A DNA stretch of 48,194 nucleotides from Campylobacterales bacterium (GTDB lineage: Bacteria; Campylobacterota; Campylobacteria; Campylobacterales; JAOZPA01): positions 1-48,194 of the forward strand of contig JAOZPA010000002.1 of assembly GCA_029932985.1 (NCBI GenBank), in the 5' to 3' direction. Below are positions 6,708 through 18,958 of the stretch, piece by piece. Below the pieces are notes generated by a model. It was not told the DNA's origin, did no database searches, and saw only the letters and a program-made list of their open reading frames with translations. Positions within the stretch are counted from its first letter, which is position 1; every line of letters starts with the position of its first letter. Position numbers and translations under genes: made by a program.

Positions 6708-8087
6708 ATGAAGACGATTTTTAGGGAATATGATATTAGAGGGATTTTTGAAAAAGAGTTAAATGAAAAGATGACTAAGGCGATTGGGTATTTTTTTGGT
6801 AAAAAAGTTAAGGAGATTGGGGATTATGTGTCGGTGGGTTATGATGCACGGACTCATTCGCCTAAAATTTGTGAGTGGTTGGTGAGTGGATTTAATAAAG
6901 CTGGGCTTAAGGTTTTGAATATGGGGCTTGTGCCTACACCTGTAAATTATTTTGGGAATTTTCGGGAGTTTCAAGGGGTTACACCGTCGGGTTCGATTAT
7001 GATTACGGGGTCTCACAATCCTCCAGAATACAATGGATTTAAGATTACTTTAAATAAAGACCCATTTTTTGGTGAGATGATTTATGCTTTGGGTGATGAG
7101 ATTTTGAAAAATTTAGATTTTAAGATTGAGGATGATATAAACTCAACAAAAATTGATGCAAAAGAGCAATATATAGATTATTTAACAGATGAGTTTAAAG
7201 ATTTGAGGATTGATAAAAAGATAATTTTTGATGCAGGAAATGGAGCAGCTGGGGAGATTGTGAAAAAGTTAGCTTTAAATTTAGGATTAGATTCTGAGTG
7301 TTTATATTGTAATCCCGATGGCACTTTTCCAAACCACCACCCAGACCCAAGTGAGGAGGAGAATTTAGCAGATGTGCAGGAGAAGTTAAAGGGCGATTTT
7401 GAGTTTGGATTTGCTTATGATGGAGATGGTGATAGAATTGCAGTTTTGACCAAAAAGCACAATTTCAAGGGTGATGAGTTGGCAATAATTTTATCAAAGC
7501 AGATGAAAAATCCCGTAGTCATTGGTGAAGTAAAGTGTTCGCAAGTGATGTATGATGAGATAAATGCGCGTGGTACGGCAGTGATGTACAAGACTGGACA
7601 TAGCAATCTCAAGGTGAAAATCAAGGAGTTAAATGCGGATTTGGCAGCGGAGGTGAGTGGGCATATCTTTTTTAATGACCGATATTTTGGATATGATGAT
7701 GCAATCTATTCAACTTTTCGAGTTTTAGAGTTAATCCATAATGGAGTTAATTTGGATAAAGAGGTGGAATCTTTGCCAAAAACTTATAACACTCCCGAGG
7801 TCAAAGTTTATACGACTGAACAGGAAAAATTTCCGCTGATGGATAAAATTACTGAGTTGATAAATGAGGTAGATGAAAACTTTCCAAAAATCAAAGAGAT
7901 AATTACTGTCGATGGAATTCGAGTAATTTTTGAAGATGGTTGGGGGCTGGTTCGGGCTTCAAATACAACTCCCGTACTTGTGACACGATTTGAGTCAACA
8001 AATGAGAAAAATGTGGAAATTTACCAAAATGCAATGGTAGGAGTGATTGAAAAAGCTAAAAAAATTCTCTTGACTTCAGGGGCTTAA
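6708..8087 (+). CDS. algC: phosphomannomutase / phosphoglucomutase
   Basis: Active-site loop TGSHNPPEYNGFK and Mg-binding loop FAYDGDGDRIAV. 459 aa. Confidence 0.88.
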   Translation: MKTIFREYDIRGIFEKELNEKMTKAIGYFFGKKVKEIGDYVSVGYDARTHSPKICEWLVSGFNKAGLKVLNMGLVPTPVNYFGNFREFQGVTPSGSIMITGSHNPPEYNGFKITLNKDPFFGEMIYALGDEILKNLDFKIEDDINSTKIDAKEQYIDYLTDEFKDLRIDKKIIFDAGNGAAGEIVKKLALNLGLDSECLYCNPDGTFPNHHPDPSEEENLADVQEKLKGDFEFGFAYDGDGDRIAVLTKKHNFKGDELAIILSKQMKNPVVIGEVKCSQVMYDEINARGTAVMYKTGHSNLKVKIKELNADLAAEVSGHIFFNDRYFGYDDAIYSTFRVLELIHNGVNLDKEVESLPKTYNTPEVKVYTTEQEKFPLMDKITELINEVDENFPKIKEIITVDGIRVIFEDGWGLVRASNTTPVLVTRFESTNEKNVEIYQNAMVGVIEKAKKILLTSGA

Positions 8088-8090
8088 CAA

Positions 8091-8102
8091 CCCCTCACCG
8101 AT
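8091..8102 (+). repeat. CCCCTCACCGAT polar 12-mer, copy 1
   Basis: Exact 12-mer, 3 nt after the algC stop. See the motif finding. Confidence 0.8.
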
Positions 8103-8232
8103 GGTTTTATTTTCTAAGAGACAGAGGGGAAAAGGCAAGAAATAGGTAGCGTTGCCCAATCGTAGTCCAAAACTTTAAACACTTTTAAGGAGTATTAATA
8201 TATAATTTTAGTTAAAAATTTAAAGGCAGAAG

Positions 8233-10206
8233 ATGGCAGTTATTAATATAAAAACCAGTTTAAAAGAGAGTTTGGCAATTTTGAGTGAAAAAGAGTATGG
8301 AGCGAAGTTTTTTAAGGCGGATTTGCATTTTCATACACCAGCTTCTGAGGATGCGAGGGGAAGTAATCGTTATAATTTTAATCCATATAAAAATGTAAAA
8401 TATCCTCCTCACGATTATTCGTGGGAGCATCACGAGAAGATTCAGGCGATTCAAAATGAGGTTTTAAAAGATGCTAAGAAGTTGGCTAAAGAGATGGTGG
8501 AGCAGTTTTTAGCTAAGGGGTTGTCGCTGGTTGCGGTTACTGACCATAATGGAATTGGTACGATTTGGGCGGATGCTAGAGATACGGTGAGAACGAGTAT
8601 GGATTTGGCAGCTCCCACTTGGTATGAGTTGATTTGTGATGAGGCGGAGAAGATTAATCACGAGTTGGGCAAGAAAAAGATTACGATTTTGGCGGGGGTT
8701 GAAATAAGTACGGTAGGTGTGCATATTTTGGCGATTTTTCCACCACACAATCCTCCACGGAAAATTCATTTTATCATTTCGGAGCTTTTAAATGAGATTG
8801 GTTTTTCGATTGATGAGATGGGGCGAAATCCAAAAGTGGGCAAGGCAAGTATCTATAATACGATTGAGTTGATTCATCAAAAGGGTGGTTTGCCAATTAT
8901 TGCACATATTGATGGGAGTGACCAAGCTTTGTTGAAAAATTATGAATTAACTTCGGGGGCAATGAAAAATGTGCTGTTGCATAAGAATCTTCAAGCGGTG
9001 GAGATTGTGAAGCCTAGACGTTTTACCAGAAAAGATAGGAAACTCAAAAAAACTGTTGACCAGTGGATTCAAACTCTGCGAAAAAAAAAGAATCTGTCGG
9101 GAATTGCATATTTTCAGGGTTCAGATGCCCACGACCTAAAAAGTATTGCTAAACGGTTCACCTATGTCAAGATGACTGAGCCTACTTATGGGGGATTGAT
9201 TAATGCGATTAATTCACCCTCTTCACGGGTGAGGGTCTCGGAACTTTATGAGCCTCCTCAAAATAAACTTTTTATCCACGGACTAGAGATAAAGAGTAAA
9301 TATTTTGGTCATCAATATATCCGTTTTAATCGTCATTTAAACTGTCTGATTGGGCGGAAAGAGTCGGGCAAATCCTATTTTTTTAAGTTGATGCAAAAGG
9401 CTATTGGTAAATCTACCGTAGATGGTGATGCTACCCTGTTTATTGAAAATATAGTGGATGGTCGGTCGATTTTATATGCTTTTAATAGTGCTAAAAATAG
9501 TTTGTATCGGGTCAAAAAGTCTCGGGGACGGACATATATTAGAGAGTTAAAAAATGATTCGCCAGAGATGGAAGCATTGAAGCCGAAGTTTTTTAATGCC
9601 GATAAGATTAATCTGTTGATTAGTTCTAGTGAAAAAATTAATGCTTTTTTGATTAAAAAATTTGGAAATCCCACTATCACAAATATCAATAGATTTAATA
9701 GAATTTTTGCAATTCCTCAAATGCTTTCGGGCGAAGATGAAAGTTTTTTGATGGTCAAAAATGTACGAGGCAAATATCAACTTCTTCATAATATCAATTG
9801 GCGAAGTGGCAAAAGGCTTAAAAATATCAATTTTTTTAAATTAAGTAATAGTATCCGTCGGATTATGATTATTGCGATGTTGGTGGTGGATAATCTCAAT
9901 GGTCCGCTGATTATCGATGCCCCTGAGGAGTATTTTGATAATGAAGATATTGCGAACTATCTCATACCGATAATCACTCAATACAAAAATACTCAACAGA
10001 TAATAATCTCTACTGGTAGCTCCATTTTGGCGGTCAACTCTGACCCTGAGAATTATATCATTTTAAATACATCTATGAATAAATTTCAAAGCATCGAATC
10101 AGGTTTTGCAATCGATAAACAATCTCAAAAAGAGCGAATTATCCGTTTGGTAGAGGGGAATGTGAAAGCATTTCAAAAAAGAGCAATTCGTTATAATGAA
10201 AATTAA
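8233..10206 (+). CDS. PHP-domain phosphoesterase fused to an SMC/ABC-type ATPase (Ppl / TrlF-like single-gene defence candidate)
   Basis: N-terminal PHP motifs: DLHFHTPASED, AVTDHN, GVEIST, IIAHIDGSD, GSDAHD. C-terminal ATPase: SMC-like head LFIHGLEIKSKYFG..FNRHLNCLIGRKESGKSYFF (Walker A), signature-like KLSNSIRR, and Walker B LIIDAPEEYFDNEDI. Confidence 0.7.
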   Translation: MAVINIKTSLKESLAILSEKEYGAKFFKADLHFHTPASEDARGSNRYNFNPYKNVKYPPHDYSWEHHEKIQAIQNEVLKDAKKLAKEMVEQFLAKGLSLVAVTDHNGIGTIWADARDTVRTSMDLAAPTWYELICDEAEKINHELGKKKITILAGVEISTVGVHILAIFPPHNPPRKIHFIISELLNEIGFSIDEMGRNPKVGKASIYNTIELIHQKGGLPIIAHIDGSDQALLKNYELTSGAMKNVLLHKNLQAVEIVKPRRFTRKDRKLKKTVDQWIQTLRKKKNLSGIAYFQGSDAHDLKSIAKRFTYVKMTEPTYGGLINAINSPSSRVRVSELYEPPQNKLFIHGLEIKSKYFGHQYIRFNRHLNCLIGRKESGKSYFFKLMQKAIGKSTVDGDATLFIENIVDGRSILYAFNSAKNSLYRVKKSRGRTYIRELKNDSPEMEALKPKFFNADKINLLISSSEKINAFLIKKFGNPTITNINRFNRIFAIPQMLSGEDESFLMVKNVRGKYQLLHNINWRSGKRLKNINFFKLSNSIRRIMIIAMLVVDNLNGPLIIDAPEEYFDNEDIANYLIPIITQYKNTQQIIISTGSSILAVNSDPENYIILNTSMNKFQSIESGFAIDKQSQKERIIRLVEGNVKAFQKRAIRYNEN

Positions 10207-10285
10207 TTTGGATTATTTTTAGGCAAAAGTACCATATCATCTCTCTTTTGAGGTGATAATTTGCCAATTAAAAGAAAGGAAAATT

Positions 10286-11500
10286 ATGAAAATAATAAAG
10301 GTAAAATATATTTTGAGATGTGATGAAAATTTTGAAATTATTGAGGATGGAGCAGTTGTATATAATGAAAAGATAATTGATTATGGTGAAAGTGATTTTA
10401 TCATCAAAAAATATCCAGATTTAGAGGTGTGTGATTATGAAAATTCTATCTTGATGCCCTCGCTTATCAACCCTCATCTGCATCTGGAATTTTCGGCAAA
10501 CAAAACTACACTTACCTATGGAGATTTTATAGAGTGGCTAAAAAGTGTGATAACATATCGTGAAGAGTTGATTGAAAGTTGTCATGAAAAGTGTATGGAT
10601 GAGGCGATTAAGAGTTGTAAAATCTCTGGTGTAGGGGCGATTGGGGCGGTTAGTAGCTATGGATTTGATTTGCAATCTTGTGTAAATTCCAATATAAAAG
10701 TGGTTTATTTCAATGAAATTTTAGGCTCTAGGTCGGATATGTTGGATGCTTTGCTAAATGATTTCAACGATAGAGTTTATACATCTTTGCAATATAAATC
10801 AAAACTTTTTACCCCAGCGGTGGCGATTCACTCACCCTATTCAACTCATCCACTTTTGGCAAAAAGAGCGATTGAGAGTGCAAAATTTCAAAATATGGTG
10901 GTTTCAACCCATTTTATGGAGTCTGTTGCGGAGCGGAAATGGCTAGATGAGGGGCTAGGTGATTTTCAAGATTTTTTTAAATTATTTTTGCCAAATAGTA
11001 AACCATTAACTTCAGCTTTGGATTATTTAGCACTTTTTAAAGAGGTCAAAACTCTTTTTACCCATTGTGTTTATGCAAATCAAGCGGAGATTTCACAAAT
11101 GAAAAAGATGGGATGTATTACCCATTGCCCAACCTCAAATCGCCTTTTGGGGGCTAAAAAATTGGATATAAAAGATTTAGAAAATTTGACCATAGGAACA
11201 GATGGACTTAGCTCAAATAACTCTTTAAATCTTTGGGATGAATTGCGAACGGCATTGATGATTCATAATGAGTTTGAGGTGAATGATTTAGCCAAAAAAC
11301 TTTTAAAATCGGTGACTTTAAATGGGGCAAAAGCTTTAAATCTAAATAGTGGTCAAATTGCAAAAGGGAAATATGCTGATATGATACTTGTGCAGGGGCT
11401 AGGTGAGATAGAGGATATAGATACGATTGCAACTTCATTGATTTTGCATACGAAAAAAGTTGAAAAATTATTTGTAAATGGTGAGACTATTTGTATTTAA
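10286..11500 (+). CDS. amidohydrolase-superfamily enzyme (chlorohydrolase / aminofutalosine- or MTA-deaminase-like)
   Basis: Metal-binding LINPHLHLEFS, later HSPYS, HFMES and GTDG blocks. ATG at 10286 follows AAAGGAAAATT; the track ORF begins at an upstream GTG (10253). Confidence 0.75.
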   Translation: MKIIKVKYILRCDENFEIIEDGAVVYNEKIIDYGESDFIIKKYPDLEVCDYENSILMPSLINPHLHLEFSANKTTLTYGDFIEWLKSVITYREELIESCHEKCMDEAIKSCKISGVGAIGAVSSYGFDLQSCVNSNIKVVYFNEILGSRSDMLDALLNDFNDRVYTSLQYKSKLFTPAVAIHSPYSTHPLLAKRAIESAKFQNMVVSTHFMESVAERKWLDEGLGDFQDFFKLFLPNSKPLTSALDYLALFKEVKTLFTHCVYANQAEISQMKKMGCITHCPTSNRLLGAKKLDIKDLENLTIGTDGLSSNNSLNLWDELRTALMIHNEFEVNDLAKKLLKSVTLNGAKALNLNSGQIAKGKYADMILVQGLGEIEDIDTIATSLILHTKKVEKLFVNGETICI

Positions 11501-11813
11501 AAGCATCAAAACTCACCGTAAAGAAATAGTTGTCATCTGTCACTTGCCACTTTAGATTATAGTTCACTACACCGTGCCAATTTAATTTTTGGCAGATGAT
11601 ATTTTTGATATAGCTCTTAACCTCTGTATCATTTTGTAGAAATGCTTGTGAAAAAGTGAGTTTAGTCAGATTTTTTTGAGAAATTTCAATCTCATTATAG
11701 TACCAACCATCTTGAGGTGAGAGTAACATCGTATTGTGATTTGGTGGTGAGGTGTGAATTTCGCACGAAAATAAAATCGTGCTTAACAAAAAAGAGATAT
11801 ATAAAAATTTCAC
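11487..11813 (-). CDS. small secreted hypothetical protein
   Basis: 108 aa with signal-like N-terminus MKFLYISFLLSTILFSC. It abuts the upstream TPR gene. No recognisable domain. Confidence 0.45.
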   Translation of the reverse strand: MKFLYISFLLSTILFSCEIHTSPPNHNTMLLSPQDGWYYNEIEISQKNLTKLTFSQAFLQNDTEVKSYIKNIICQKLNWHGVVNYNLKWQVTDDNYFFTVSFDAFKYK

Positions 11814-12769
11814 TATTTTGTCTCTTTTGGAAGATAGGACTTAAAAATTTTCACTATATTTTTAAGTCTATTTTTTCTCTCAGTATCCATCTTTTCAATC
11901 CACTCATCGATAAAATCAAATGACCAATTTTCAAGAACTCTATCTTTATTTACCTTTTGCCATCTTTTCAACATCAACTCCTGCGAACTCTCCTCAGTGA
12001 TATATAAAATCTCCAAAAGCTCCACAAACATTACAAACTCTTTTTCATTTAGATATTTAGCCTTATAAAACTCCATCTCTTCAAAGAAAAATTTATCTGT
12101 CACTAAACTTAATTCAAACTTATTTATAAGTGACAAAGTCAAAACATTATCAACCTTATCTCTATTTTTCAGTACCTCAATCACTTTATCATAACTCTCA
12201 ATCGATTTAGGAAAATTCCCCAACAAACCATAAAGATAACCTATACTATAAAAAACTTCATATTTAACCTCAACATCTTTAATCTTAGTTATATCATTTG
12301 CCTCAGCCCACGCCAAAAGCTCATAATTTGTATCAATCGCCTTTTGAAACTCCTCTTTATCCTGATAAATTCGTGAACACATCGCATAAGAGTAACTTAT
12401 CAAATCTATAAAAGAGTTGTTATATGAGAATATCTCAAATTTTGATTTAAAATCTTTAAAAATCTTCAAAGCTTCATCTATCTTTTCAAGATTCCACAAA
12501 TCTGTCGCCTTAGATATATAAGCAAAAGCTACAAATTTTGCAAATTGATTATCTATCTTATATTTATCAATAATCAGCTGATTTATATCTATCGCCTTTT
12601 GAAAATCACCCCTTTTCCTATGCTTTGAAGTTTCGTCATTTAATTTCTGAATATAAATAAGCTCCTTCAATTTCTCCGCATCCTCACTATTGATTTTCAA
12701 ATCAAGGTTAGCTTCCAGCCCCCCAACAAAAAAAACTACCAAACTCATATATAAAAATATTTTTCTCAT
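11813..12769 (-). CDS. secreted TPR-like repeat protein
   Basis: Signal peptide MRKIFLYMSLVVFFVGG and repeated helical A..Y/F..A motifs. I place the start at ATG 12769, because GGAGG lies 5 nt upstream; the track TTG at 12781 overlaps that Shine-Dalgarno. Confidence 0.55.
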   Translation of the reverse strand: MRKIFLYMSLVVFFVGGLEANLDLKINSEDAEKLKELIYIQKLNDETSKHRKRGDFQKAIDINQLIIDKYKIDNQFAKFVAFAYISKATDLWNLEKIDEALKIFKDFKSKFEIFSYNNSFIDLISYSYAMCSRIYQDKEEFQKAIDTNYELLAWAEANDITKIKDVEVKYEVFYSIGYLYGLLGNFPKSIESYDKVIEVLKNRDKVDNVLTLSLINKFELSLVTDKFFFEEMEFYKAKYLNEKEFVMFVELLEILYITEESSQELMLKRWQKVNKDRVLENWSFDFIDEWIEKMDTERKNRLKNIVKIFKSYLPKETK

Positions 12770-12903
12770 AAAACCCTCCAATTAATTTAAATGTTTCAAA
12801 AAAGCTAAATTATACCGAAAATGAGATAATTTTCTGATAAAAACCTAAATTTAAACTATACTTTGATAAACTTAATCCCAAATTTTGACGAAAAAGGATA
12901 TTT

Positions 12904-13425
12904 ATGAAAAGATTTATGCTATTTTTACTTTTGGCAACTTCGGTTTTTGCTAAAGATATGATTGCAGTTTTGGAGACCACACAGGGAACAATTGAGATAA
13001 AACTATACCCAGAAATTGCCCCAAAAGCGGTAGAAAATTTTACAACTCATATTAAAAATGGTTACTATAATGGTTTGATTTTTCACAGAATTATCAAAAG
13101 TTTTATGATTCAAGGTGGAGACCCAACAGGCTCAGGAACTGGTGGAGAGTCTATTTGGAAAAAAGATTTTGAAGATGAGTTTAAACCAAATATTGTTTTT
13201 GATAAATCTGGAATCTTGGCGATGGCAAACCGTGGACGAAACACAAATGGAAGCCAATTTTTTATCACTACAAAACCAACTCCGTGGTTAAATGGAGCTC
13301 ATACAATTTTTGGTGAAGTTGTAAAGGGTATGGATGTTGTGATGAAACTTGATAATGTAAAAGTTAGTAGAGGAATGAATAAACCATTAACAGAGCAAAA
13401 AATTATTAAAGCTTCTGTAAAATAG
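12904..13425 (+). CDS. cyclophilin-type peptidyl-prolyl cis-trans isomerase, secreted
   Basis: FHRIIKSFMIQGGDPTGSGTGGESIW and NTNGSQFFIT blocks. Signal peptide MKRFMLFLLLATSVFA. Confidence 0.92.
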   Translation: MKRFMLFLLLATSVFAKDMIAVLETTQGTIEIKLYPEIAPKAVENFTTHIKNGYYNGLIFHRIIKSFMIQGGDPTGSGTGGESIWKKDFEDEFKPNIVFDKSGILAMANRGRNTNGSQFFITTKPTPWLNGAHTIFGEVVKGMDVVMKLDNVKVSRGMNKPLTEQKIIKASVK

Positions 13426-13638: not shown

Positions 13639-14907
13639 TTAGGATTTATAGAAATTAAAATTATTTTTTCCGCTATTTTTAACTTTGTACATAGCTTTAT
13701 CTGCTTGTTTTATTAATTTTTCTTTTGTTTGTGCATTTTGTGGAAAAAAGGAGATACCAATACTGATACCAATCTTGATTTCTAAATCATCTACATAATA
13801 GGTGGCACTAATGGAGGAGATAATTTTTTGAACTATTTTGATAAGGTCGTTCTCTTTTTTGATGTGTTCAAGGACGGCGATAAATTCGTCACCCCCATAT
13901 CTGGCGATTGTATCATTTTCACGGAGGGAGTTTTGGAGTCTTTTTGTAATTAATTTTAAGATTTCATCTCCAATATCGTGACCAAAATTGTCATTTATAG
14001 GTTTAAATCCATCGATATCCATAAATAATAGTGCAAACATCTCATCTTTTTCTTTGGCTTGAAATTGTATCTCTTCGAGTGCCATATCTAAACCAAATCG
14101 ATTTAAAAGTCCAGTGAGAATATCGCTAGATGCAATTTTTTCATATTTCTCTTTTTCTGCATTTTGTAGGGTTAAATCATGAGCAAAAACGATAATTTCT
14201 TGGAGTTTATTATTTTCAATTATGGGGACAAAAGTGGAATTTGTATAGATTATTTTTTTATCTTTATCCAAAAAATTTAAGCTTTGATTAAAAACCATAC
14301 CTTGGGTCAAAAATTCACAAGCGGTTTTTTTATCAAAATCACTCTCCGTATTTAAAATCGTGACAAAATCATTGTTATTATCAATATTGAAATTACAGCT
14401 TACCAGTTCACTAAAACTGCTATTTACATAGATTAATTTCATATCAGAGTTTAAAAAAATCATAGGAATGTTATCCTCTGCGGCTTTTTTGTATCTATTT
14501 ATAATAATATCTTTATGGTTATTTTCTCGAACTAGTAGCTCATTCATATTTCGATTTTGTGTGAGAATCTGCTCTTTTAATTTTAATTTAGTATTATCTT
14601 CAAAAATAAAAACAACCTCAGGTAAATTTTCCACTTTTTTCGCAAAAATATTTAGATAATAATCATCTCTTTTGACCGTATGTAGCTCAAAAACATCCTC
14701 TTTATTGATAAAAAGTTTCTCTATATCATCTTCAAATCCCACAAGTTCATAAAAACTTTCTCGAATATCATCACCAATCTCTACACCTATATCAAGATAT
14801 TCTATGATAGTTTTTGAAAAATCTTGCACTACAAAATCTCTATTAATCACTACATATTCTAACTTATATCTCTCAATAATTACTTTATACACATCGCTAT
14901 ATTTCAT
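13639..14907 (-). CDS. diguanylate cyclase (GGDEF) with N-terminal PAS-like sensory region
   Basis: C-terminal GGDEF domain: DILTGLLNRFG, FMDIDGFKPINDNFGHDIGD, RYGGDEFIAV. The start overlaps the GTPase stop (ATGA). Confidence 0.85.
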   Translation of the reverse strand: MKYSDVYKVIIERYKLEYVVINRDFVVQDFSKTIIEYLDIGVEIGDDIRESFYELVGFEDDIEKLFINKEDVFELHTVKRDDYYLNIFAKKVENLPEVVFIFEDNTKLKLKEQILTQNRNMNELLVRENNHKDIIINRYKKAAEDNIPMIFLNSDMKLIYVNSSFSELVSCNFNIDNNNDFVTILNTESDFDKKTACEFLTQGMVFNQSLNFLDKDKKIIYTNSTFVPIIENNKLQEIIVFAHDLTLQNAEKEKYEKIASSDILTGLLNRFGLDMALEEIQFQAKEKDEMFALLFMDIDGFKPINDNFGHDIGDEILKLITKRLQNSLRENDTIARYGGDEFIAVLEHIKKENDLIKIVQKIISSISATYYVDDLEIKIGISIGISFFPQNAQTKEKLIKQADKAMYKVKNSGKNNFNFYKS

Positions 14908-15401
14908 TTTATCTCTTTTGCAATCTTGAAAAACATCTCTTCTACCTCTTCACCAGTTTTGGCTGAGGTGTAAAAACTACCCTTAATTTGAGGGTATTGA
15001 GACTTTAGCTCCTCTATATTTGCCCTAAAATCAGGCTCTAAATCAATTTTATTAAAAACAAGTACAGATGGAATCTCTTTAACCACACTATTGCAAATTC
15101 GGATATGCTCTTTTATCTGTTCTGGATATTTTTTGTCTTGGACATCTATGACAATAATTGCTCCATGCGCCCCTCTTGCATATATGGTATTTATCGGTTT
15201 GATTTTTGTCGCCCCCTCAATATCCCATATCAAAAGAGTTGCCTTTTGGTCATATATTTGCACATTTTTTTTGGAAATCTTGACCCCTATTGTACTAATA
15301 TAATCATCACTAAAACTATTTTCTACAAATCTTTTGATAAGACTTGTTTTTCCAACAGAAAAGTTTCCAATAAGAATAACTTTTTTTTGTATCTTAATCA
15401 T
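14904..15401 (-). CDS. Ras/Rab-like small GTPase
   Basis: G1 GNFSVGKT, G2 Thr in YISTIG, G3 WDIEGA, G4 NKID, G5 TSAK. I place the start at ATG 15401, which forms an ATGA overlap with the upstream stop; the track uses TTG at 15419. Confidence 0.8.
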   Translation of the reverse strand: MIKIQKKVILIGNFSVGKTSLIKRFVENSFSDDYISTIGVKISKKNVQIYDQKATLLIWDIEGATKIKPINTIYARGAHGAIIVIDVQDKKYPEQIKEHIRICNSVVKEIPSVLVFNKIDLEPDFRANIEELKSQYPQIKGSFYTSAKTGEEVEEMFFKIAKEIK

Positions 15402-16984
15402 TTTTTTATTAACTCCCAACTAAATATCACACATCGTGATAACTCTTTTTGTTTTTTTGTGGATAAAATCAATATCTCTTTAGGCTCAGAAGCGACAGAA
15501 TCAAGTATAAATTTATCTCTATTAATCCCTCTTTTGACCAACTCCTCTTTTACCATCTCTGCTCTATTTAAAGATAATTTTTTATTTACAAGAGTTGAAC
15601 CTATCTCATTTGTGTATCCTGTGATTCTTACATAATATTGAGTGTATTGTAACATTATTTTTGCATATTTATCTAAAAGAATCTTATATTTATCTTTTAT
15701 TTTAAATTCGTTATTATCAAAATAGATTTGTTTTTCAAAAATAGGTAAAGTTTCAATCTGGAAATTAAAATTTTCTAATCCATAAATATTTTTGATTATA
15801 GAGATTAATGAATTTTTTCTTTTTTTATCTGCCACAATCCCCTTTATTGAAATATATTTCAAACTATTATCAAATTTATATTCAATATCACTACCCTCTA
15901 TTTTATTAAATATTTTTATACTTTTATCTACCTCTTTTTGAATTTGTGTAGTGACCAATGAACTTTCTATGGAAGTGACTCTATTTTTGATTTTAAGTCT
16001 GGAGTTTTGAAGTTTGAAGTTTAAGTTTTCTAAATCATTATCACTCATAACAAAACCATTAACTGAAATTTTATTATTTTTAAGTTTTGAAATCTCCATA
16101 TCATAAATTTTAACATCTTTTAAATTATCTATAAAAATATCTCTTTTTTTCTCAATAACTAAATTTTCACGATATTCTTGAATAAACCAAAATGTGGGAA
16201 TTAAAAATAATATAAATAATACTAGTTTACTTAAAAAAGGAATTTTGCCTTTGGTTTTTTTGTGATTTTCTTTAATATCAAAAAGAGTTAATAGAGTTGT
16301 ACTTATCTCTTTAATATCTAATTTTGTAATATCTCCATCGAATTTACCGATTTGATAACCAAAAATTTCTATAATATATTCAAGCACTTTCGAGATTTTA
16401 TTTTTGACCATAAATTCAGGAGTCCCTCGCATCACCACCGCCAAATAACAGCTCCCTGCAGATTCTATATAGATAGAGGAGTTGCCATATTCGATAGTAT
16501 TAACCTCACCCATCTTTGTATTTTCAGCCACCCATTCATTGACAAAGCTTCTGATGGCACTAAGCATTGAGGCAACCATCTCTGGCTCTTTGATTTTTGT
16601 GGTGTGGTCTCGATATAGGTCAATCATCAATAAACCACTCTCTTTATGGATTAAAAAAATAGTGTCAATTCTGACAATAAGAGAATCTTTAAGTAAAAGC
16701 TCAATTTCACTAATACCCAAAAATTTGGCTTTTATTTTTCTAATAAATGCTTTGATAAAAACCATCAGCTTCATCTTTTCATTTAAATCATACATAAAAT
16801 CCTTAAACGATTCCCCCACATATCTACTTATCATATTTCCCATAATAGGGTACAAAGCATCTATCACTTTCTCTTTATTGTTACTCTCCTCCTCCAAAAT
16901 TGCAATTCGCTTTTTCAGTTGAGCAATAGAATTTATCTCCTCTTCAAGAATAAGATTTTTTAATCTCTTTAGCTCTTCACTCAT
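15398..16984 (-). CDS. membrane protein: cytoplasmic coiled-coil + possible Roadblock/LC7-like module, one TM segment, two BON-like repeats, OmpA/MotB-like C-terminal domain
   Basis: TM segment LVLFILFLIPTFWFI. BON-like ISVNGFVMSDNDLENL and ISIKGIVADKKRKNSLISIIKNIYGL. OmpA-like VRITGYTNEIGSTLVNKKLSLNRAEMVKEELVKRGI. The Roadblock-like call (SSIYIESAGSCYLAVVMRG) is tentative. Confidence 0.65.
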   Translation of the reverse strand: MSEELKRLKNLILEEEINSIAQLKKRIAILEEESNNKEKVIDALYPIMGNMISRYVGESFKDFMYDLNEKMKLMVFIKAFIRKIKAKFLGISEIELLLKDSLIVRIDTIFLIHKESGLLMIDLYRDHTTKIKEPEMVASMLSAIRSFVNEWVAENTKMGEVNTIEYGNSSIYIESAGSCYLAVVMRGTPEFMVKNKISKVLEYIIEIFGYQIGKFDGDITKLDIKEISTTLLTLFDIKENHKKTKGKIPFLSKLVLFILFLIPTFWFIQEYRENLVIEKKRDIFIDNLKDVKIYDMEISKLKNNKISVNGFVMSDNDLENLNFKLQNSRLKIKNRVTSIESSLVTTQIQKEVDKSIKIFNKIEGSDIEYKFDNSLKYISIKGIVADKKRKNSLISIIKNIYGLENFNFQIETLPIFEKQIYFDNNEFKIKDKYKILLDKYAKIMLQYTQYYVRITGYTNEIGSTLVNKKLSLNRAEMVKEELVKRGINRDKFILDSVASEPKEILILSTKKQKELSRCVIFSWELIKK

Positions 16985-17463
16985 TTTTTTATTTTATTTT
17001 TTATCTCACTTACCAAAGTTGTATTTTTAAGCTTAACCGCACTCTCAAAAAACATTGAAGCCAAACTTGCCTTAGAAACGCTATTTTCAATTAGATGAGT
17101 ATTTACCTCATTTAATTTATCATCAAATGTAGTTCTAAGAGAATCCAATGACTCACTCACAAACTCTTTTTGAATTGACTGCTCTTTTTTCATACTATTT
17201 ATCTCTGCACTAGTGATATTTTTATGAGCTTTAAATCGATTATCAGTTTTTTCCTCTAAAGCCTTAAATTTATCTGAATAATGAGTATCTAGCTGGTTAA
17301 TAATTCCCTTGATACTTTTTGAGAAAGTGTTAAGTTCCCGTCGCATATCTTCACGAAGCTCCACAATTTTTCTATTTAACTGTCGAAACTCCGTTTTATT
17401 CTCCTTCTCTAAAGCTCCAAAAAGCAACTCCCGAATCTCCTCCATATCATTAACATCTTTCAT
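16981..17463 (-). CDS. coiled-coil hypothetical protein (first gene of the GTPase operon)
   Basis: Heptad-rich, charged sequence. ATG at 17463 is preceded by GGAGG with 5-nt spacing; the track start at 17502 is less likely. The stop overlaps the next start (ATGA). Confidence 0.5.
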   Translation of the reverse strand: MKDVNDMEEIRELLFGALEKENKTEFRQLNRKIVELREDMRRELNTFSKSIKGIINQLDTHYSDKFKALEEKTDNRFKAHKNITSAEINSMKKEQSIQKEFVSESLDSLRTTFDDKLNEVNTHLIENSVSKASLASMFFESAVKLKNTTLVSEIKNKIKK

Positions 17464-17903
17464 AGCATCCTCCAAAAATAATTTTTTAATCAATAAAAAC
17501 AAATTAGACTCTGATTTGTTAATAGAAAGCTGATTATATCAAAAATATTTAAAAATATATCTAAAAATTTAAGTAAAATGAGAAATCTTAATAGTTGGTA
17601 AAATTTAATGAAAAAGTGAAGTAAAAAAAAGTTGGTTTAGTATTGAGCAAGAATACTCAATCAAACTTTATAAAAGTTAAATTTAAGTATTTTAAAAAGA
17701 AGCTAATCCCTATCCCCAAGATTGTTACATTTTTTAGTTAGCAAGGTATCAAAAAAGGAGTTTGTTAAAATATTTTAGTTCCTAGAAACAGGGATTGCTA
17801 AGTGATATTCTATCTTAAAAAAAATTAATTTTCGATTAAACTAATAGAAAAAATGGCAGAAAATGGGGTAAATATGTTATAATTAAAACCAAAAAGGGAT
17901 AAT

Positions 17904-18871: not shown

Positions 18872-18958
18872 GCCTAAGTGGTGAAATTGGTAGACACGCT
18901 AGACTCAAAATCTGGTTACAGCAATGTAGTGTCGGTTCGAGTCCGACCTTAGGTACCA
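18872..18958 (+). tRNA. tRNA-Leu (anticodon CAA), type II with long variable arm, CCA encoded
   Basis: Cloverleaf folded by eye. Acceptor GCCTAAG/CTTAGGT (G1-U72). Anticodon stem CTAGA/TCTGG with loop CTCAAAA. T-arm GTCGG-TTCGAGT-CCGAC. Discriminator A plus CCA. Confidence 0.9.

What the first reader, a model, noticed from the sequence alone, without database searches (positions are those of the whole stretch)
8233..10206. Solitary PHP-phosphoesterase + SMC/ABC-like ATPase fusion wedged between housekeeping genes (Ppl/TrlF-like)
Seen in sequence:
- One 657-aa ORF carries all the PHP metal-ligand blocks in its first 310 residues or so: HFH, TDHN, GVEIS, AHIDGSD, GSDAHD.
- It also carries an SMC/RecF-type ATPase head (LFIHGLEIK...NCLIGRKESGKSYFF), a degenerate signature KLSNSIRR and Walker B LIIDAPEEYFDNEDI.
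- It lies between algC and an amidohydrolase gene, with no partner gene.

Established knowledge, from memory and needing verification: a single-gene system named ppl (polymerase/histidinol-phosphatase-like), which combines a PHP domain with an ATPase, was reported among experimentally validated anti-phage genes. NCBI also names a TrlF family of AAA-like ATPases with a similar layout.

Inference: this is a candidate nuclease/ATPase immune sensor-effector. The ATPase insert between Walker A and the signature motif (about 170 aa) shows nothing I recognise and could be the sensing module.
Basis: partly seen in the sequence, partly recalled or inferred. Interest (0 to 1): 0.68.

Follow-up and report, generated by a model that had tools for sequence, protein, structure and literature searches.

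The report
Armless Ppl-like PHP nuclease–ATPase gene
This is an intact, strongly conserved single gene that fuses a metal-dependent PHP phosphoesterase to a Rad50/SMC-type nucleotide-binding head; it belongs to an unnamed short branch of the family that contains the anti-phage protein Ppl, so it is probably a stand-alone immune nuclease, but this has not been tested.

Summary
**Observation.** Confirmed. It lies between a phosphomannomutase-type gene and an aminofutalosine-deaminase-family gene.

**Family.** It is homologous to TrlF, Spaf_1101 and Ppl, the PHP + ABC/SMC-like ATPase fusions. It scores below the curated cut-off of all three NCBIfam models: 228/350, 170/475 and 118/1000 bits.

**What distinguishes it.** It belongs to a compact, monophyletic clade of about 655 aa, 45-59% identical across several phyla and labelled "hypothetical" everywhere. 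Compared with the named families, this clade:
- lacks the coiled-coil arm of about 240 aa and keeps only a helical stub of about 36 aa;
- has two clade-specific inserts in the PHP domain;
- has lost the Q-loop Gln and H-loop His;
- carries Walker B as DAPE rather than DQPE.

**Context.**
- No partner gene recurs in 49 loci.
- The gene is absent from 80 Campylobacterota algC neighbourhoods.
- The closest relative (76% identity) sits between a PycC-like cyclase and a UvrD/PD-(D/E)XK helicase.
- Another relative abuts a UG4 reverse transcriptase.

**Most likely function (inferred).** An NTP-gated PHP exonuclease that acts as a single-gene defence, as reported for E. coli Ppl.

**Verdict.** New variant of a known kind; moderate interest.

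The parts
8233..10206 (+). Whole gene: PHP phosphoesterase fused to an ABC/SMC-type NTPase head, 657 aa
   Evidence: ORF list; family scans; homologues; AlphaFold2 model with pLDDT 88.0 and pTM 0.86
8299..9237 (+). PHP domain (aa 23-335). Invariant putative metal ligands are H32, H34, H105, E157, H164, H225, D298 and H300, plus near-invariant D40
   Evidence: Invariant columns in A1. hhalign against long TrlF-type forms gives probability 100 and E 1.6e-79 over aa 17-394. The long-form profile hits solved PHP enzymes 3e0f, 9etk, 7ug9 (RNase AM), 2yb1 and EndoQ. NCBIfam CehA/McbA scores 37.5 bits over aa 26-328
8353..8472 (+). Clade-specific PHP insert 1 (aa 41-80; conserved ARGxNRYNFNPYK, then the start of a 30-residue helix). 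This site is a hotspot for larger helical insertions in some clade members
   Evidence: Gap against long forms in hhalign and in BLAST against TrlF and Ppl. Invariant R42, G43 and Y47; near-invariant F49, N50, P51 and Y52. P0128, P0129 and P0132 carry 140-330 extra residues here
8551..8610 (+). Clade-specific PHP insert 2 (aa 107-126)
   Evidence: Gap against long forms in hhalign
9262..9597 (+). ABC head N-lobe (aa 344-455): beta-sheet, Walker A, and the Q-loop strand PKFFNA, in which the canonical Gln is replaced by Ala456
   Evidence: Secondary structure of the model. Foldseek matches Rad50, SMC, RecN and PtuA heads at E 2.5e-11 and weaker. Motif table
9352..9375 (+). Walker A, GRKESGKS (G374, G379 and K380 invariant)
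9598..9705 (+). Short helical stub (aa 456-491) at the position where TrlF/Ppl-type relatives have a coiled-coil arm of ~240 aa plus an extra alpha/beta domain
   Evidence: Model helices 456-464, 466-477 and 482-491, compared with long-form model helices 413-653 and domain 658-745. BLAST block structure
9706..10203 (+). ABC head C-lobe (aa 492-657), with the signature, Walker B, D-loop and H-loop positions and a conserved C-terminal EGxxxxFxxRxxxY helix pair
   Evidence: 32% identity to TrlF residues 767-888
9841..9861 (+). Degenerate signature motif LSNSIRR. L537 and S540 are invariant. Long forms have LSxGQK
9907..9927 (+). Walker B, LIIDAPE. Asp562 is followed by Ala, not Glu, and Glu565 lies at +3
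   Evidence: Motif counts. Short forms: DAPE 79, DEPG 13, DSPE 8, DEPE 5. Long forms: DQPE 86. Alignment to Rad50 LILDEPT
10012..10020 (+). H-loop position, TGS. The His found in 101 of 111 long forms is absent
8088..8232 (+). Upstream intergenic region (145 nt) with AAAGG 9 nt before the ATG. No terminator-like site lies between the upstream gene and this gene
   Evidence: Sequence; pattern scan
6708..8087 (+). Upstream neighbour: phosphomannomutase/phosphoglucomutase-type gene. Housekeeping, not part of the system
   Evidence: NCBIfam PgmG 405 bits; 72% identity to Campylobacterales orthologues
10286..11500 (+). Downstream neighbour: aminofutalosine deaminase family hydrolase. Housekeeping, not part of the system. 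The likely true start is ATG 10286
   Evidence: NF006269 555 bits, with the alignment starting at residue 12 of the 10253 ORF; sequence. It never co-occurs with the gene in 49 related loci

Best explanation
**What it is.** A single-gene, horizontally acquired defence nuclease. It belongs to a previously unnamed short branch of the PHP-ABC ATPase superfamily that contains Ppl, TrlF and Spaf_1101.

**Shown here**
- The N-terminal PHP domain keeps the full set of metal ligands.
- The C-terminal Rad50/SMC-type head keeps Walker A, the Walker B Asp and a signature Ser.
- The head lacks the coiled-coil arm, the Q-loop Gln and the H-loop His.
- The gene has no conserved partner and is under purifying selection.

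**Inferred**
- The PHP domain is a metal-dependent exonuclease that acts on invader nucleic acid. A 2026 review states that E. coli Ppl is a 3'-5' ssDNA exonuclease.
- The head binds NTP and probably dimerises around it. It works mainly as a nucleotide-occupancy switch that keeps the nuclease off while NTP pools are normal and releases it when infection depletes them. It does not work as a DNA-translocating or DNA-clamping motor.
- Without the arm, any DNA-end recognition would have to come from the head and from the two clade-specific PHP inserts.
For: **Homology**
- TrlF 228 bits, Spaf_1101 170 bits and Ppl 118 bits.
- PADLOC Ppl E 4.5e-25.
- hhalign against long forms gives probability 100 and E 1.6e-79.

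**Intact catalytic inventory**
- PHP ligands and Walker A are invariant.
- dN/dS is about 0.04.

**ATPase fold**
- The head matches Rad50, SMC, RecN and PtuA.

**Degenerate hydrolysis motifs but retained binding motifs**
- See the motif counts.
- DAPE and DEPG vary reciprocally, which suggests that one Glu is still needed.

**Accessory, mobile behaviour**
- The protein is 45-59% identical to proteins of Omnitrophota, Gemmatimonadota, Myxococcota, Desulfobacterales and Scalindua. The housekeeping neighbour is only 72% identical within the same order.
- The gene is absent near algC in 80 Campylobacterota species.
- DNA similarity to the 76%-identical relative stops exactly at the gene ends.
- Neighbours vary, and no partner recurs in 49 loci.

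**Defence context of relatives**
- L001 carries a PycC-like cyclase (7.5e-43), then the gene, then a UvrD helicase hitting GajB models (1.8e-30), then a PD_DExK protein (9e-49).
- L085 carries a UG4 defence reverse transcriptase starting 1 nt after the stop.
- Among 147 neighbour ORFs of clade members, 99 PADLOC families are matched. Among 147 control ORFs, 18 are matched.
- TrlF and Ppl on plasmids sit next to restriction-modification systems.

**Literature**
- Ppl is a validated single-gene defence combining an ATPase and a PHP domain (PMC11482910).
- Ppl is described as a 3'-5' ssDNA exonuclease inhibited by NTPs bound to both domains (PMC12904381).
Against: - No experiment exists on any member of this short clade.
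- It fails the curated cut-offs of all three named families.
- In the window itself every neighbour is housekeeping, none hits PADLOC, and the gene's GC content (36.7%) matches its neighbours.
- In most related loci the neighbours are ordinary genes, so the defence-island signal is modest. Because the PADLOC output counts families rather than proteins, it cannot be quantified exactly.
- The clade is unusually well conserved for a defence gene, with 59% mean column identity.
- The Ppl mechanism comes from one review sentence without a cited primary paper, and it concerns a coiled-coil-bearing protein only about 24% identical to this one.
- The substrate (DNA, RNA or nucleotide) cannot be read from the sequence.
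Confidence: 0.58

Rival explanations
1. It is a housekeeping or stress-related nucleic-acid repair or processing enzyme. It would be a fused, minimal Rad50-Mre11/SbcCD-like or RNase AM-like activity, with the ABC head regulating a PHP exonuclease on the cell's own DNA or RNA ends, and it would not be dedicated to immunity.
For: - The window context is entirely housekeeping. The gene runs in the same direction as both neighbours, and no terminator-like site appears before 11575.
- GC content is native-like.
- Sequence conservation is high.
- Most related loci show ordinary neighbours.
- PHP relatives with solved structures include RNase AM, EndoQ and a nucleotide phosphatase.
- The head resembles Rad50.
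Against: - The distribution across phyla is patchy, and identities are incongruent with housekeeping genes.
- The gene is absent from 80 Campylobacterota algC neighbourhoods. Only one relative above 60% identity exists among 5.8 billion clustered proteins.
- No synteny is conserved.
- The nearest named relatives are defence or plasmid genes.
- The closest homologue lies in a defence island.
Confidence: 0.2
2. It is the effector or sensor of a multi-gene system whose partner lies elsewhere or varies. One example would be a nucleotide-signal-responsive nuclease that works with a cyclase, as in the PycC-adjacent relative. Another would be a Gabija-like pair with a UvrD helicase. On this reading the window copy is an orphan.
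For: - In L001 the gene lies 55 bp after a PycC-like cyclase and 15 bp before a UvrD/PD-(D/E)XK helicase that hits GajB models.
- In L085 it abuts a UG4 reverse transcriptase.
- ABC-ATPase plus nuclease plus UvrD is the Gabija layout (established knowledge).
Against: - No neighbour family recurs across 49 loci. The largest cluster is made of generic histidine kinases.
- The window has no homologue of the L001 cyclase or helicase.
- Ppl acts as a single gene (PMC11482910).
Confidence: 0.12
3. It is a decaying or functionally inert relic, a pseudo-ATPase fusion that no longer does anything.
For: The Q-loop Gln, the H-loop His and the Glu next to the Walker B Asp are all missing.
Against: - These losses are shared and fixed across a clade that is otherwise under strong constraint.
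- dN/dS is about 0.04.
- The reading frame is intact and all PHP ligands are present.
- The reciprocal DAPE/DEPG pattern argues that a catalytic Glu is under selection.
Confidence: 0.03

Closest known systems
Ppl (Gao et al. single-gene anti-phage protein; NCBIfam NF042955, PADLOC PDLC02208)
   Same: - N-terminal PHP domain with the same ligand blocks.
- C-terminal split ABC/SMC-type NTPase.
- Glu at +3 of Walker B (DxPE).
- Conserved C-terminal LEG...F..R helix.
- Single gene with no obligate partner.
   Different: - Only about 24% identical over the PHP domain plus the N-lobe.
- Scores 118.5 bits against a cut-off of 1000.
- About 235 aa shorter, because the coiled-coil arm and the extra domain are missing.
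- The Q-loop Gln and H-loop His are lost, and the signature Gly is replaced by Ser.
- Two extra inserts in the PHP domain.
- No functional data.
TrlF family AAA-like ATPase (NCBIfam NF045780), common on conjugative plasmids
   Same: - Best-scoring named family, at 228 bits.
- Same domain order.
- 32% identity in the C-lobe.
- Hits occur on 203 plasmid records, one of them next to a type II restriction-modification system.
   Different: - Below the 350-bit cut-off.
- The TrlF insert is 448 aa, against 138 aa here.
- TrlF carries DQPE, THN and LSxGQ motifs; this protein carries DAPE, TGS and LSNS.
- The tree distance of 0.80 is as large as the distance between two TrlF references, 0.78.
Spaf_1101 family AAA-like ATPase (NCBIfam NF045781)
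   Same: Same PHP + ABC layout. The match covers residues 18-486.
   Different: Scores 170 bits against a cut-off of 475. Spaf_1101 is a long form of 836-856 aa.
Rad50-Mre11 / SbcCD
   Same: - The ABC head fold is closest to Rad50 and SMC heads (E 2.5e-11).
- An ATP-binding head is combined with a metal-dependent phosphoesterase nuclease.
   Different: - The nuclease is a PHP domain, not a calcineurin-like Mre11, and it is fused in cis.
- There is no coiled coil and no zinc hook.
- The hydrolysis motifs are degenerate.
Gabija GajA / OLD-family and PARIS AriA, Septu/retron PtuA (defence ABC ATPases paired with nucleases)
   Same: - A short-armed or armless ABC head is coupled to a nuclease.
- There are weak PADLOC GajA and LmuB hits at Walker A, and structural hits to PtuA.
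- The closest relative is followed by a UvrD helicase, as in Gabija.
   Different: - The nuclease type differs: PHP here, against TOPRIM or HNH there.
- There is no significant sequence-level membership; E-values are 1e-4 or weaker.
Stand-alone PHP phosphoesterases of the TrpH/RNase AM/Cv1693/EndoQ type
   Same: Same PHP ligand pattern. The superfamily profile hits 3e0f, 9etk, 7ug9, 2yb1 and 5zb8.
   Different: - Those proteins have no ABC head.
- The Pfam PHP score of the window protein is just below the gathering threshold, 24.8 against 26.4 bits.

Membership tests
Ppl (NF042955 / PADLOC Ppl) | Whole-protein score at or above the curated equivalog cut-off (1000 bits) | tested here: not met
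   118.5 bits in 2 stretches, the best covering aa 23-395. PADLOC Ppl scores 85.9 bits, E 4.5e-25, and its best stretch covers profile positions 77-310 of 894.
Ppl (NF042955 / PADLOC Ppl) | N-terminal PHP domain with a complete metal-ligand set | tested here: met
   H32, H34, H105, E157, H164, H225, D298 and H300 are invariant and D40 is near-invariant. They align with the long-form ligands.
Ppl (NF042955 / PADLOC Ppl) | C-terminal ABC/SMC-type NTPase with Walker A, signature and Walker B | tested here: met
   The signature is degenerate (LSNS).
Ppl (NF042955 / PADLOC Ppl) | Long helical (coiled-coil) insert between the N- and C-lobes of the head; total length ~880-900 aa | tested here: not met
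   657 aa in total. The insert region is 138 aa, against ~448 aa in TrlF. The model shows only helices 456-491, whereas the long-form model has helices 413-653 plus an extra domain.
Ppl (NF042955 / PADLOC Ppl) | Canonical Q-loop Gln and H-loop His, as in nearly all long forms | tested here: not met
   Long forms have the Gln in 105 of 111 sequences and the His in 101 of 111. The window protein has A456 and G595 at these positions.
Ppl (NF042955 / PADLOC Ppl) | Acts as a single gene with no conserved partner | tested here: met
   No neighbour family recurs in 49 loci.
Ppl (NF042955 / PADLOC Ppl) | Anti-phage activity; 3'-5' ssDNA exonuclease inhibited by NTPs | not testable with these tools
   Known for E. 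coli Ppl only, from the literature (PMC11482910, PMC12904381).
Ppl (DefenseFinder Gao_Ppl model) | Hit to the Gao_Ppl HMM under DefenseFinder's score and coverage rules | not tested
TrlF family AAA-like ATPase (NF045780) | Score at or above the curated cut-off (350 bits) | tested here: not met
   228.4 bits. The best stretch covers profile positions 2-341 of 944.
Spaf_1101 family AAA-like ATPase (NF045781) | Score at or above the curated cut-off (475 bits) | tested here: not met
   170.2 bits.
PHP-ABC ATPase superfamily (TrlF + Spaf_1101 + Ppl and unnamed relatives) | Homology over both the PHP domain and both lobes of the ABC head, in the same order | tested here: met
   hhalign probability 100, E 1.6e-79 over aa 17-394. 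The C-lobe is 32-33% identical to TrlF and Ppl. 7274 relatives were found.
PHP domain (Pfam PF02811) | Score at or above the gathering threshold (26.4 bits) | tested here: inconclusive
   24.8 bits, with only profile positions 10-66 matched. Membership is supported indirectly through the superfamily profile, which hits solved PHP enzymes.
Rad50/SMC proteins | ABC head fold | tested here: met
   Foldseek: 4ncj_A E 2.5e-11 with TM (target) 0.54; 1e69_A TM (target) 0.61.
Rad50/SMC proteins | Long antiparallel coiled coil with a hinge or zinc hook | tested here: not met
   No such element in the model.

The most novel reading that the evidence does not exclude
The short clade is a "head-only" derivative of Ppl-type defence proteins. 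Its ABC module has given up ATP hydrolysis and DNA clamping: it has no arm, no Q-loop Gln and no H-loop His, and its Glu has moved. It would act purely as an NTP-occupancy sensor that gates the fused PHP exonuclease. That would make it a minimal, self-contained detector of phage-induced nucleotide depletion. The clade-specific PHP inserts would take over substrate or end recognition.
Probability: 0.3. Interest if true: 0.6.

Novelty: new variant of a known kind. Interest (0 to 1): 0.45.

Why it matters
- **Annotation.** Ppl/TrlF-type proteins are widespread: 7274 representative clusters, and 203 plasmid records in PLSDB. This compact branch fails all three curated NCBIfam cut-offs tested here (Ppl, TrlF, Spaf_1101) and is labelled "hypothetical" everywhere. 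Defining it would close that gap.
- **A natural deletion experiment.** The clade shows which parts of the Ppl architecture are dispensable: the coiled-coil arm, the Q-loop and the H-loop. If the clade protects against phage, the arm is not needed for sensing and the head acts as a nucleotide switch. That would sharpen the mechanistic model for the whole superfamily.
- **Defence repertoire.** It would also add a defence gene to the poorly charted repertoire of environmental Campylobacterota.

Tried and rejected
1. **Insertion test by synteny.** I fetched 80 Campylobacterota algC loci. None carries the gene, but gene order around algC is not conserved at this distance. In relatives ppi precedes algC, and the deaminase is never adjacent. 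No empty site or insertion boundary could therefore be defined.
2. **Flanking repeats or mobile-element scars** in 7900-10500. Only short AT-rich chance matches were found.
3. **Conserved partner gene.** All-against-all clustering of 238 neighbour ORFs from 49 loci gave histidine kinases/response regulators as the largest cluster, which is generic. The small downstream ORFs of L085 and L086 are unrelated.
4. **Partner in the window.** The window has no homologue of the L001 cyclase, helicase or small ORFs.
5. **Phage origin.** Only 2 weak long-form hits in IMG/VR, and nothing specific in BFVD.
6. **Solved structure of a family member.** None was found by sequence or by fold.
7. **Literature on "TrlF".** The word search returned only spectroscopy papers and unrelated hits. 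The ABC-ATPase classification paper of Krishnan et al. 2020 is not held. The primary paper on the Ppl mechanism was not found.
8. **Taxon names for close homologues.** The cluster look-up returned no taxon names (one member carried only a generic metagenome label).
9. **Quantitative defence-island enrichment.** The tool reports PADLOC families, not proteins, so 99 against 18 families is only suggestive.
10. **"Insert as sensing module".** Rejected on the structural model.
Full report
**1.

The window has an ATG-initiated ORF at 8233..10206 on the + strand that encodes 657 aa.

| Motif | Window coordinates |
|---|---|
| LHFH | 8323-8334 |
| TDHN | 8539-8550 |
| GVEIS | 8695-8709 |
| AHIDGSD | 8902-8922 |
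| GSDAHD | 9118-9135 |
| Walker A, GRKESGKS | 9352-9375 |
| Signature-like, LSNSIRR | 9841-9861 |
| Walker B, LIIDAPE | 9907-9927 |

- The upstream gene (6708..8087) is a phosphomannomutase/phosphoglucomutase type.
- The downstream gene is an aminofutalosine deaminase family hydrolase. It scores 555 bits against a cut-off of 320, and its true start is probably ATG 10286.
- All three genes are co-directional, with gaps of 145 and about 80 nt.
- The simple scan finds no terminator-like site until 11575.
- The other neighbours are ilvBN, an RF-1, a ClpP-like protein, DUF1302, a TPR protein, a PPIase and a GGDEF protein. None hits PADLOC.

**2. It is a real, constrained gene**

- The word-indexed search scored 394 homologues. 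The best 120 are nearly all 645-685 aa long (a few are partial) and 43-76% identical.
- The exhaustive profile search of 1.84 billion representatives found 7274 proteins at E<=1e-3 and 653 at E<=1e-30.
- In a 30-sequence alignment (A1, mean column identity 59%) these residues are invariant:
  - PHP residues H32, H34, D104/H105, E157, H164, H225/D227 and D298/H300;
  - Walker A residues G374, G379 and K380;
  - signature residues L537 and S540;
  - P564.
- Against its closest relative (P0002, 76% amino-acid identity) dN is 0.17 while synonymous sites are saturated. That gives dN/dS of about 0.04.

**3. What family it belongs to**

*Scores against curated models*

| Library and model | Score (bits) | Cut-off (bits) |
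|---|---|---|
| Pfam PHP | 24.8 | 26.4 |
| Pfam AAA_23 | 19.2 | 27 |
| NCBIfam TrlF_fam_ATP | 228.4 | 350 |
| NCBIfam Spaf_1101 | 170.2 | 475 |
| NCBIfam Ppl_antiphage | 118.5 | 1000 |
| PADLOC Ppl | 85.9 (E 4.5e-25) | none listed |

NCBIfam places the protein clearly in one neighbourhood, yet it scores below every curated cut-off.

*Homology to the long forms*

- Profile-profile comparison with 30 long (about 860-930 aa) relatives gives probability 100 and E 1.6e-79 over residues 17-394.
- BLAST against an annotated TrlF (890 aa, Sphingomonas plasmid) and an annotated Ppl (893 aa, Acinetobacter plasmid) aligns two blocks: the PHP domain plus N-lobe, and the C-lobe (32-33% identity). The long proteins have about 450 aa between the two blocks. 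The window protein has 138 aa.

*Position in the tree*

- In an NJ tree of 136 full-length representatives and references, the roughly 655-aa proteins form one clade. Its sister groups are other short forms of 590-720 aa.
- The window protein's distance to TrlF, Ppl and Spaf_1101 is about 0.80 in each case. That is as large as the distance between the two TrlF references, 0.78.

The protein is therefore a member of the PHP-ABC superfamily, but of an unnamed branch.

**4. Anatomy**

*The window protein.* The AlphaFold2 model built on A1 is confident (pLDDT 88.0, pTM 0.86).

- Residues about 23-335 form the PHP barrel.
- Residues about 344-657 form an ABC head. Its best PDB matches are Rad50 (4ncj, 3qkt, 3qku; E about 1e-11), SMC, cohesin and RecN heads, and PtuA of Septu/retron systems.
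- Nothing in the PDB matches both halves (TM-score normalised to query length about 0.3). No Ppl or TrlF structure was found by sequence or by fold.

*A long-form relative.* The model of P0166 (pLDDT 88.1) has helices spanning 413-653, an antiparallel coiled-coil arm of about 240 aa. It also has an extra alpha/beta domain at 658-745. Its best matches are JetC, SMC, MukB, LmuB and Rad50 with their arms.

*The "insert".* In the window protein the equivalent space is only residues 456-491, three short helices. The insert is therefore not a separate sensing module.

*PHP inserts.* The PHP domain has two inserts absent from long forms, at residues about 41-80 and about 107-126. The first contains the conserved motif ARGxNRYNFNPYK. 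In some clade members the first insert, or the helical stub, has expanded by 140-330 residues of helical, E/K-rich sequence.

**5. State of the ATPase site**

A column-by-column comparison and motif counts give this picture:

| Element | Long forms (TrlF/Ppl/Spaf type) | Short clade and the window protein |
|---|---|---|
| Walker A | intact | intact |
| Q-loop | Gln in 105 of 111 | Ala/Pro/Leu/Ser; A456 in the window |
| Signature | LSxGQK | LSxS(Q/L)(R/K)(R/K); S540 |
| H-loop | THN, His in 101 of 111 | T-(N/S/G); T594-G595 in the window |
| Walker B | DQPE (86) | DAPE 79, DEPG 13, DSPE 8, DEPE 5 |

- Alignment to Rad50 (LILDEPT) shows that the residue after the Asp is the canonical catalytic Glu position.
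- The whole superfamily therefore lacks the usual Glu and conserves a Glu at +3 instead.
- In the short clade the two positions vary reciprocally (DAPE or DEPG). I read this as selection for exactly one acidic catalytic or water-positioning residue.

*Inference.* Nucleotide binding and probably head dimerisation are retained. Hydrolysis is likely slow, so the head behaves as a switch rather than a motor.

**6. Distribution and context**

*Host and phyletic pattern*

- The host is a Campylobacterales bacterium. Its algC is at most 72% identical to those of GTDB species representatives.
- None of 80 Campylobacterota algC loci (±10 kb) carries the gene. Local gene order is not conserved there, so an empty site could not be defined.
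- Among 5.8 billion clustered proteins only one relative exceeds 60% identity. The next-best relatives (54-59%) come from Omnitrophota, Gemmatimonadota, Myxococcota, Desulfobacterales and Scalindua MAGs and from sediment metagenomes. That pattern is incongruent with vertical descent.
- DNA similarity between the window and the contig of the 76% relative (L001, 34.5% GC) covers window 8242-10200 only, which is the gene and nothing else.

*Neighbours of relatives*

- Across 49 loci of the clade no neighbouring gene family recurs. The largest cluster is generic histidine kinases.
- Some relatives do sit among defence genes.
  - In L001 the order is: a PycC-like cyclase (PADLOC 7.5e-43, full length); the gene; a 1165-aa UvrD helicase with a weak, sub-threshold C-terminal PD-(D/E)XK match, hitting GajB models at 1.8e-30; and a CRISPR-associated-type PD_DExK protein (9e-49). 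All are on one strand, with gaps of 15-55 bp.
  - In L085 a split UG4 defence reverse transcriptase begins 1 nt after the stop, and a PemK toxin lies nearby.
  - In L084 a type IIG restriction-modification enzyme lies 6 kb away.
- A PADLOC scan of 147 ORFs within 3 kb of clade members matched 99 families at E<=1e-10. These include AbiEi/AbiEii, UG4 RT, MzaA, PycC, a phospholipase effector and GajB. A scan of 147 control ORFs near algC matched 18 families, mostly methyltransferases and RecD-like helicases. The output counts families rather than proteins, so I treat this as suggestive only.

*The wider superfamily*

- It hits 203 plasmid records, 153 of them conjugative.
- A TrlF sits next to a type II restriction-modification system, and a Ppl sits next to a type I system.
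- The family is essentially absent from viral contigs.

**7. Mechanism**

What the literature says:
- PMC11482910 describes Ppl as an uncharacterised single-gene defence with an ATPase domain and a PHP domain. It is countered by the Ro60-like phage protein Bas63 gp130.
- The 2026 review PMC12904381 states that E. coli Ppl is a 3'-5' ssDNA exonuclease. According to that review, NTPs bound to both the PHP and NTPase domains inhibit it. Phage-induced nucleotide depletion together with 3'-OH ends activates it.
- I could not find the primary paper.

My model for the window protein combines that account with the anatomy above.
- It is an NTP-gated PHP exonuclease.
- The head senses nucleotide occupancy.
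- The PHP domain degrades invader nucleic acid.
- The missing arm means that any DNA-end recognition must be done by the head and the PHP inserts.

The following is shown: the domain identities, the motif states, the lack of an arm, the lack of a partner, the purifying selection and the accessory distribution. The following is inferred: the substrate, NTP gating, dimerisation and the immune role.

The PHP relatives with solved structures include RNase AM (a 5'-3' exoribonuclease), EndoQ and a nucleotide bisphosphate phosphatase. An RNA or nucleotide substrate is therefore not excluded.

**8. Rivals**

- **Housekeeping repair or processing role (0.2).** This fits the ordinary window context, the native-like GC (36.7%, against 34-40% for the neighbours) and the high conservation. 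It conflicts with the phyletic pattern.
- **Dependence on a variable or distant partner, such as a cyclase or UvrD (0.12).** L001 suggests this, but 49 loci and the single-gene precedent of Ppl do not support it.
- **Inert relic (0.03).** The constraint on the sequence contradicts this.

**9. Verdict**

The superfamily assignment and the likely role are right. The protein is not a member of Ppl or TrlF as curated, and the "sensing insert" idea fails.
- It is a new variant of a known kind: an armless branch of the Ppl/TrlF/Spaf_1101 superfamily with degenerate hydrolysis motifs.
- Interest is moderate (0.45). Its value lies in defining an unannotated clade and in serving as a natural minimal version for dissecting how Ppl-type proteins sense infection.

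Noticed in passing
L001:106-6979 (contig of the 76%-identical relative P0002): A tight same-strand cluster with gaps of 15-55 bp. In order: a PycC-like Pycsar cyclase (239 aa, PADLOC 7.5e-43 but no Pfam hit); the PHP-ATPase; a 1165-aa UvrD helicase with a weak, sub-threshold C-terminal PD-(D/E)XK match; and a 201-aa PD_DExK protein (9e-49). No canonical Pycsar effector is visible downstream of the cyclase. This raises the question of whether the PHP-ATPase could respond to a cyclic nucleotide there.
   Followed up: partly
L085:9981-11316: A UG4-class defence-associated reverse transcriptase is split into two ORFs (165 aa covering profile positions 3-112, and 206 aa covering 148-306). It starts 1 nt after the stop of the PHP-ATPase homologue P0029. 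This could be a frameshift, a pseudogene or an assembly error.
   Followed up: partly
Proteins P0126, P0128, P0129, P0132 (members of the short clade): Some clade members carry insertions of 140-330 aa of helical, E/K-rich sequence. They lie either in the ATPase stub (P0126) or inside PHP insert 1 after FNPY (P0128, P0129, P0132). These two sites are therefore insertion hotspots, and the armless state is not absolute within the clade.
   Followed up: partly
window 9907-9927 and homologues: Walker B varies reciprocally. Either the residue after the Asp is Glu and the +3 residue is Gly (DEPG, 13 sequences), or the residue after the Asp is Ala/Ser/Thr and the +3 residue is Glu (DAPE 79, DSPE 8, DTPE 4). 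Long forms are DQPE (86).
   Followed up: yes
L086:4790-14164, L109 and L114 (and partly L121): In Desulfarcum and related metagenome contigs the PHP-ATPase gene is embedded in a shared neighbourhood. It includes a PG_binding_1 protein of ~500 aa, a small 108-148-aa protein, a ShlB/POTRA transporter, a TPS-domain or CHAT/TPR giant protein and a CIS tape-measure-like gene.
   Followed up: partly
window 14904-17502 (- strand): Three overlapping or adjacent ORFs: a Ras/Roc-like small GTPase (171 aa; Pfam Ras 8.8e-33), a 528-aa OmpA-domain protein and a 173-aa protein with no hit. Next to them is a PAS-GGDEF gene (13639-14907). This looks like a bacterial Ras-like GTPase module of unknown role.
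   Followed up: no
window 10253-10288: The mechanical ORF of the aminofutalosine deaminase-family gene starts at GTG 10253. The family model aligns from residue 12, and GAAAGG precedes ATG 10286, so 10286 is the likelier start.
   Followed up: partly
window 6708-13425 compared with L004-L021: In about 14 related Campylobacterales species the PPIase gene lies upstream of algC on the same strand, directly adjacent in several. In the window it lies 5 kb downstream of algC, beyond the PHP-ATPase, the deaminase and two unknown genes on the - strand. The region has therefore been rearranged.
   Followed up: partly
window 11487-12781 (- strand): Two low-GC ORFs (30-32% GC) with no close family assignment: a 108-aa protein with a signal-peptide-like N-terminus, and a 322-aa protein with one TPR repeat. 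Neither hits PADLOC.
   Followed up: partly
window 18872-18958: tRNA-Leu(CAA), the only RNA gene found in the window by Rfam and ARAGORN.
   Followed up: yes
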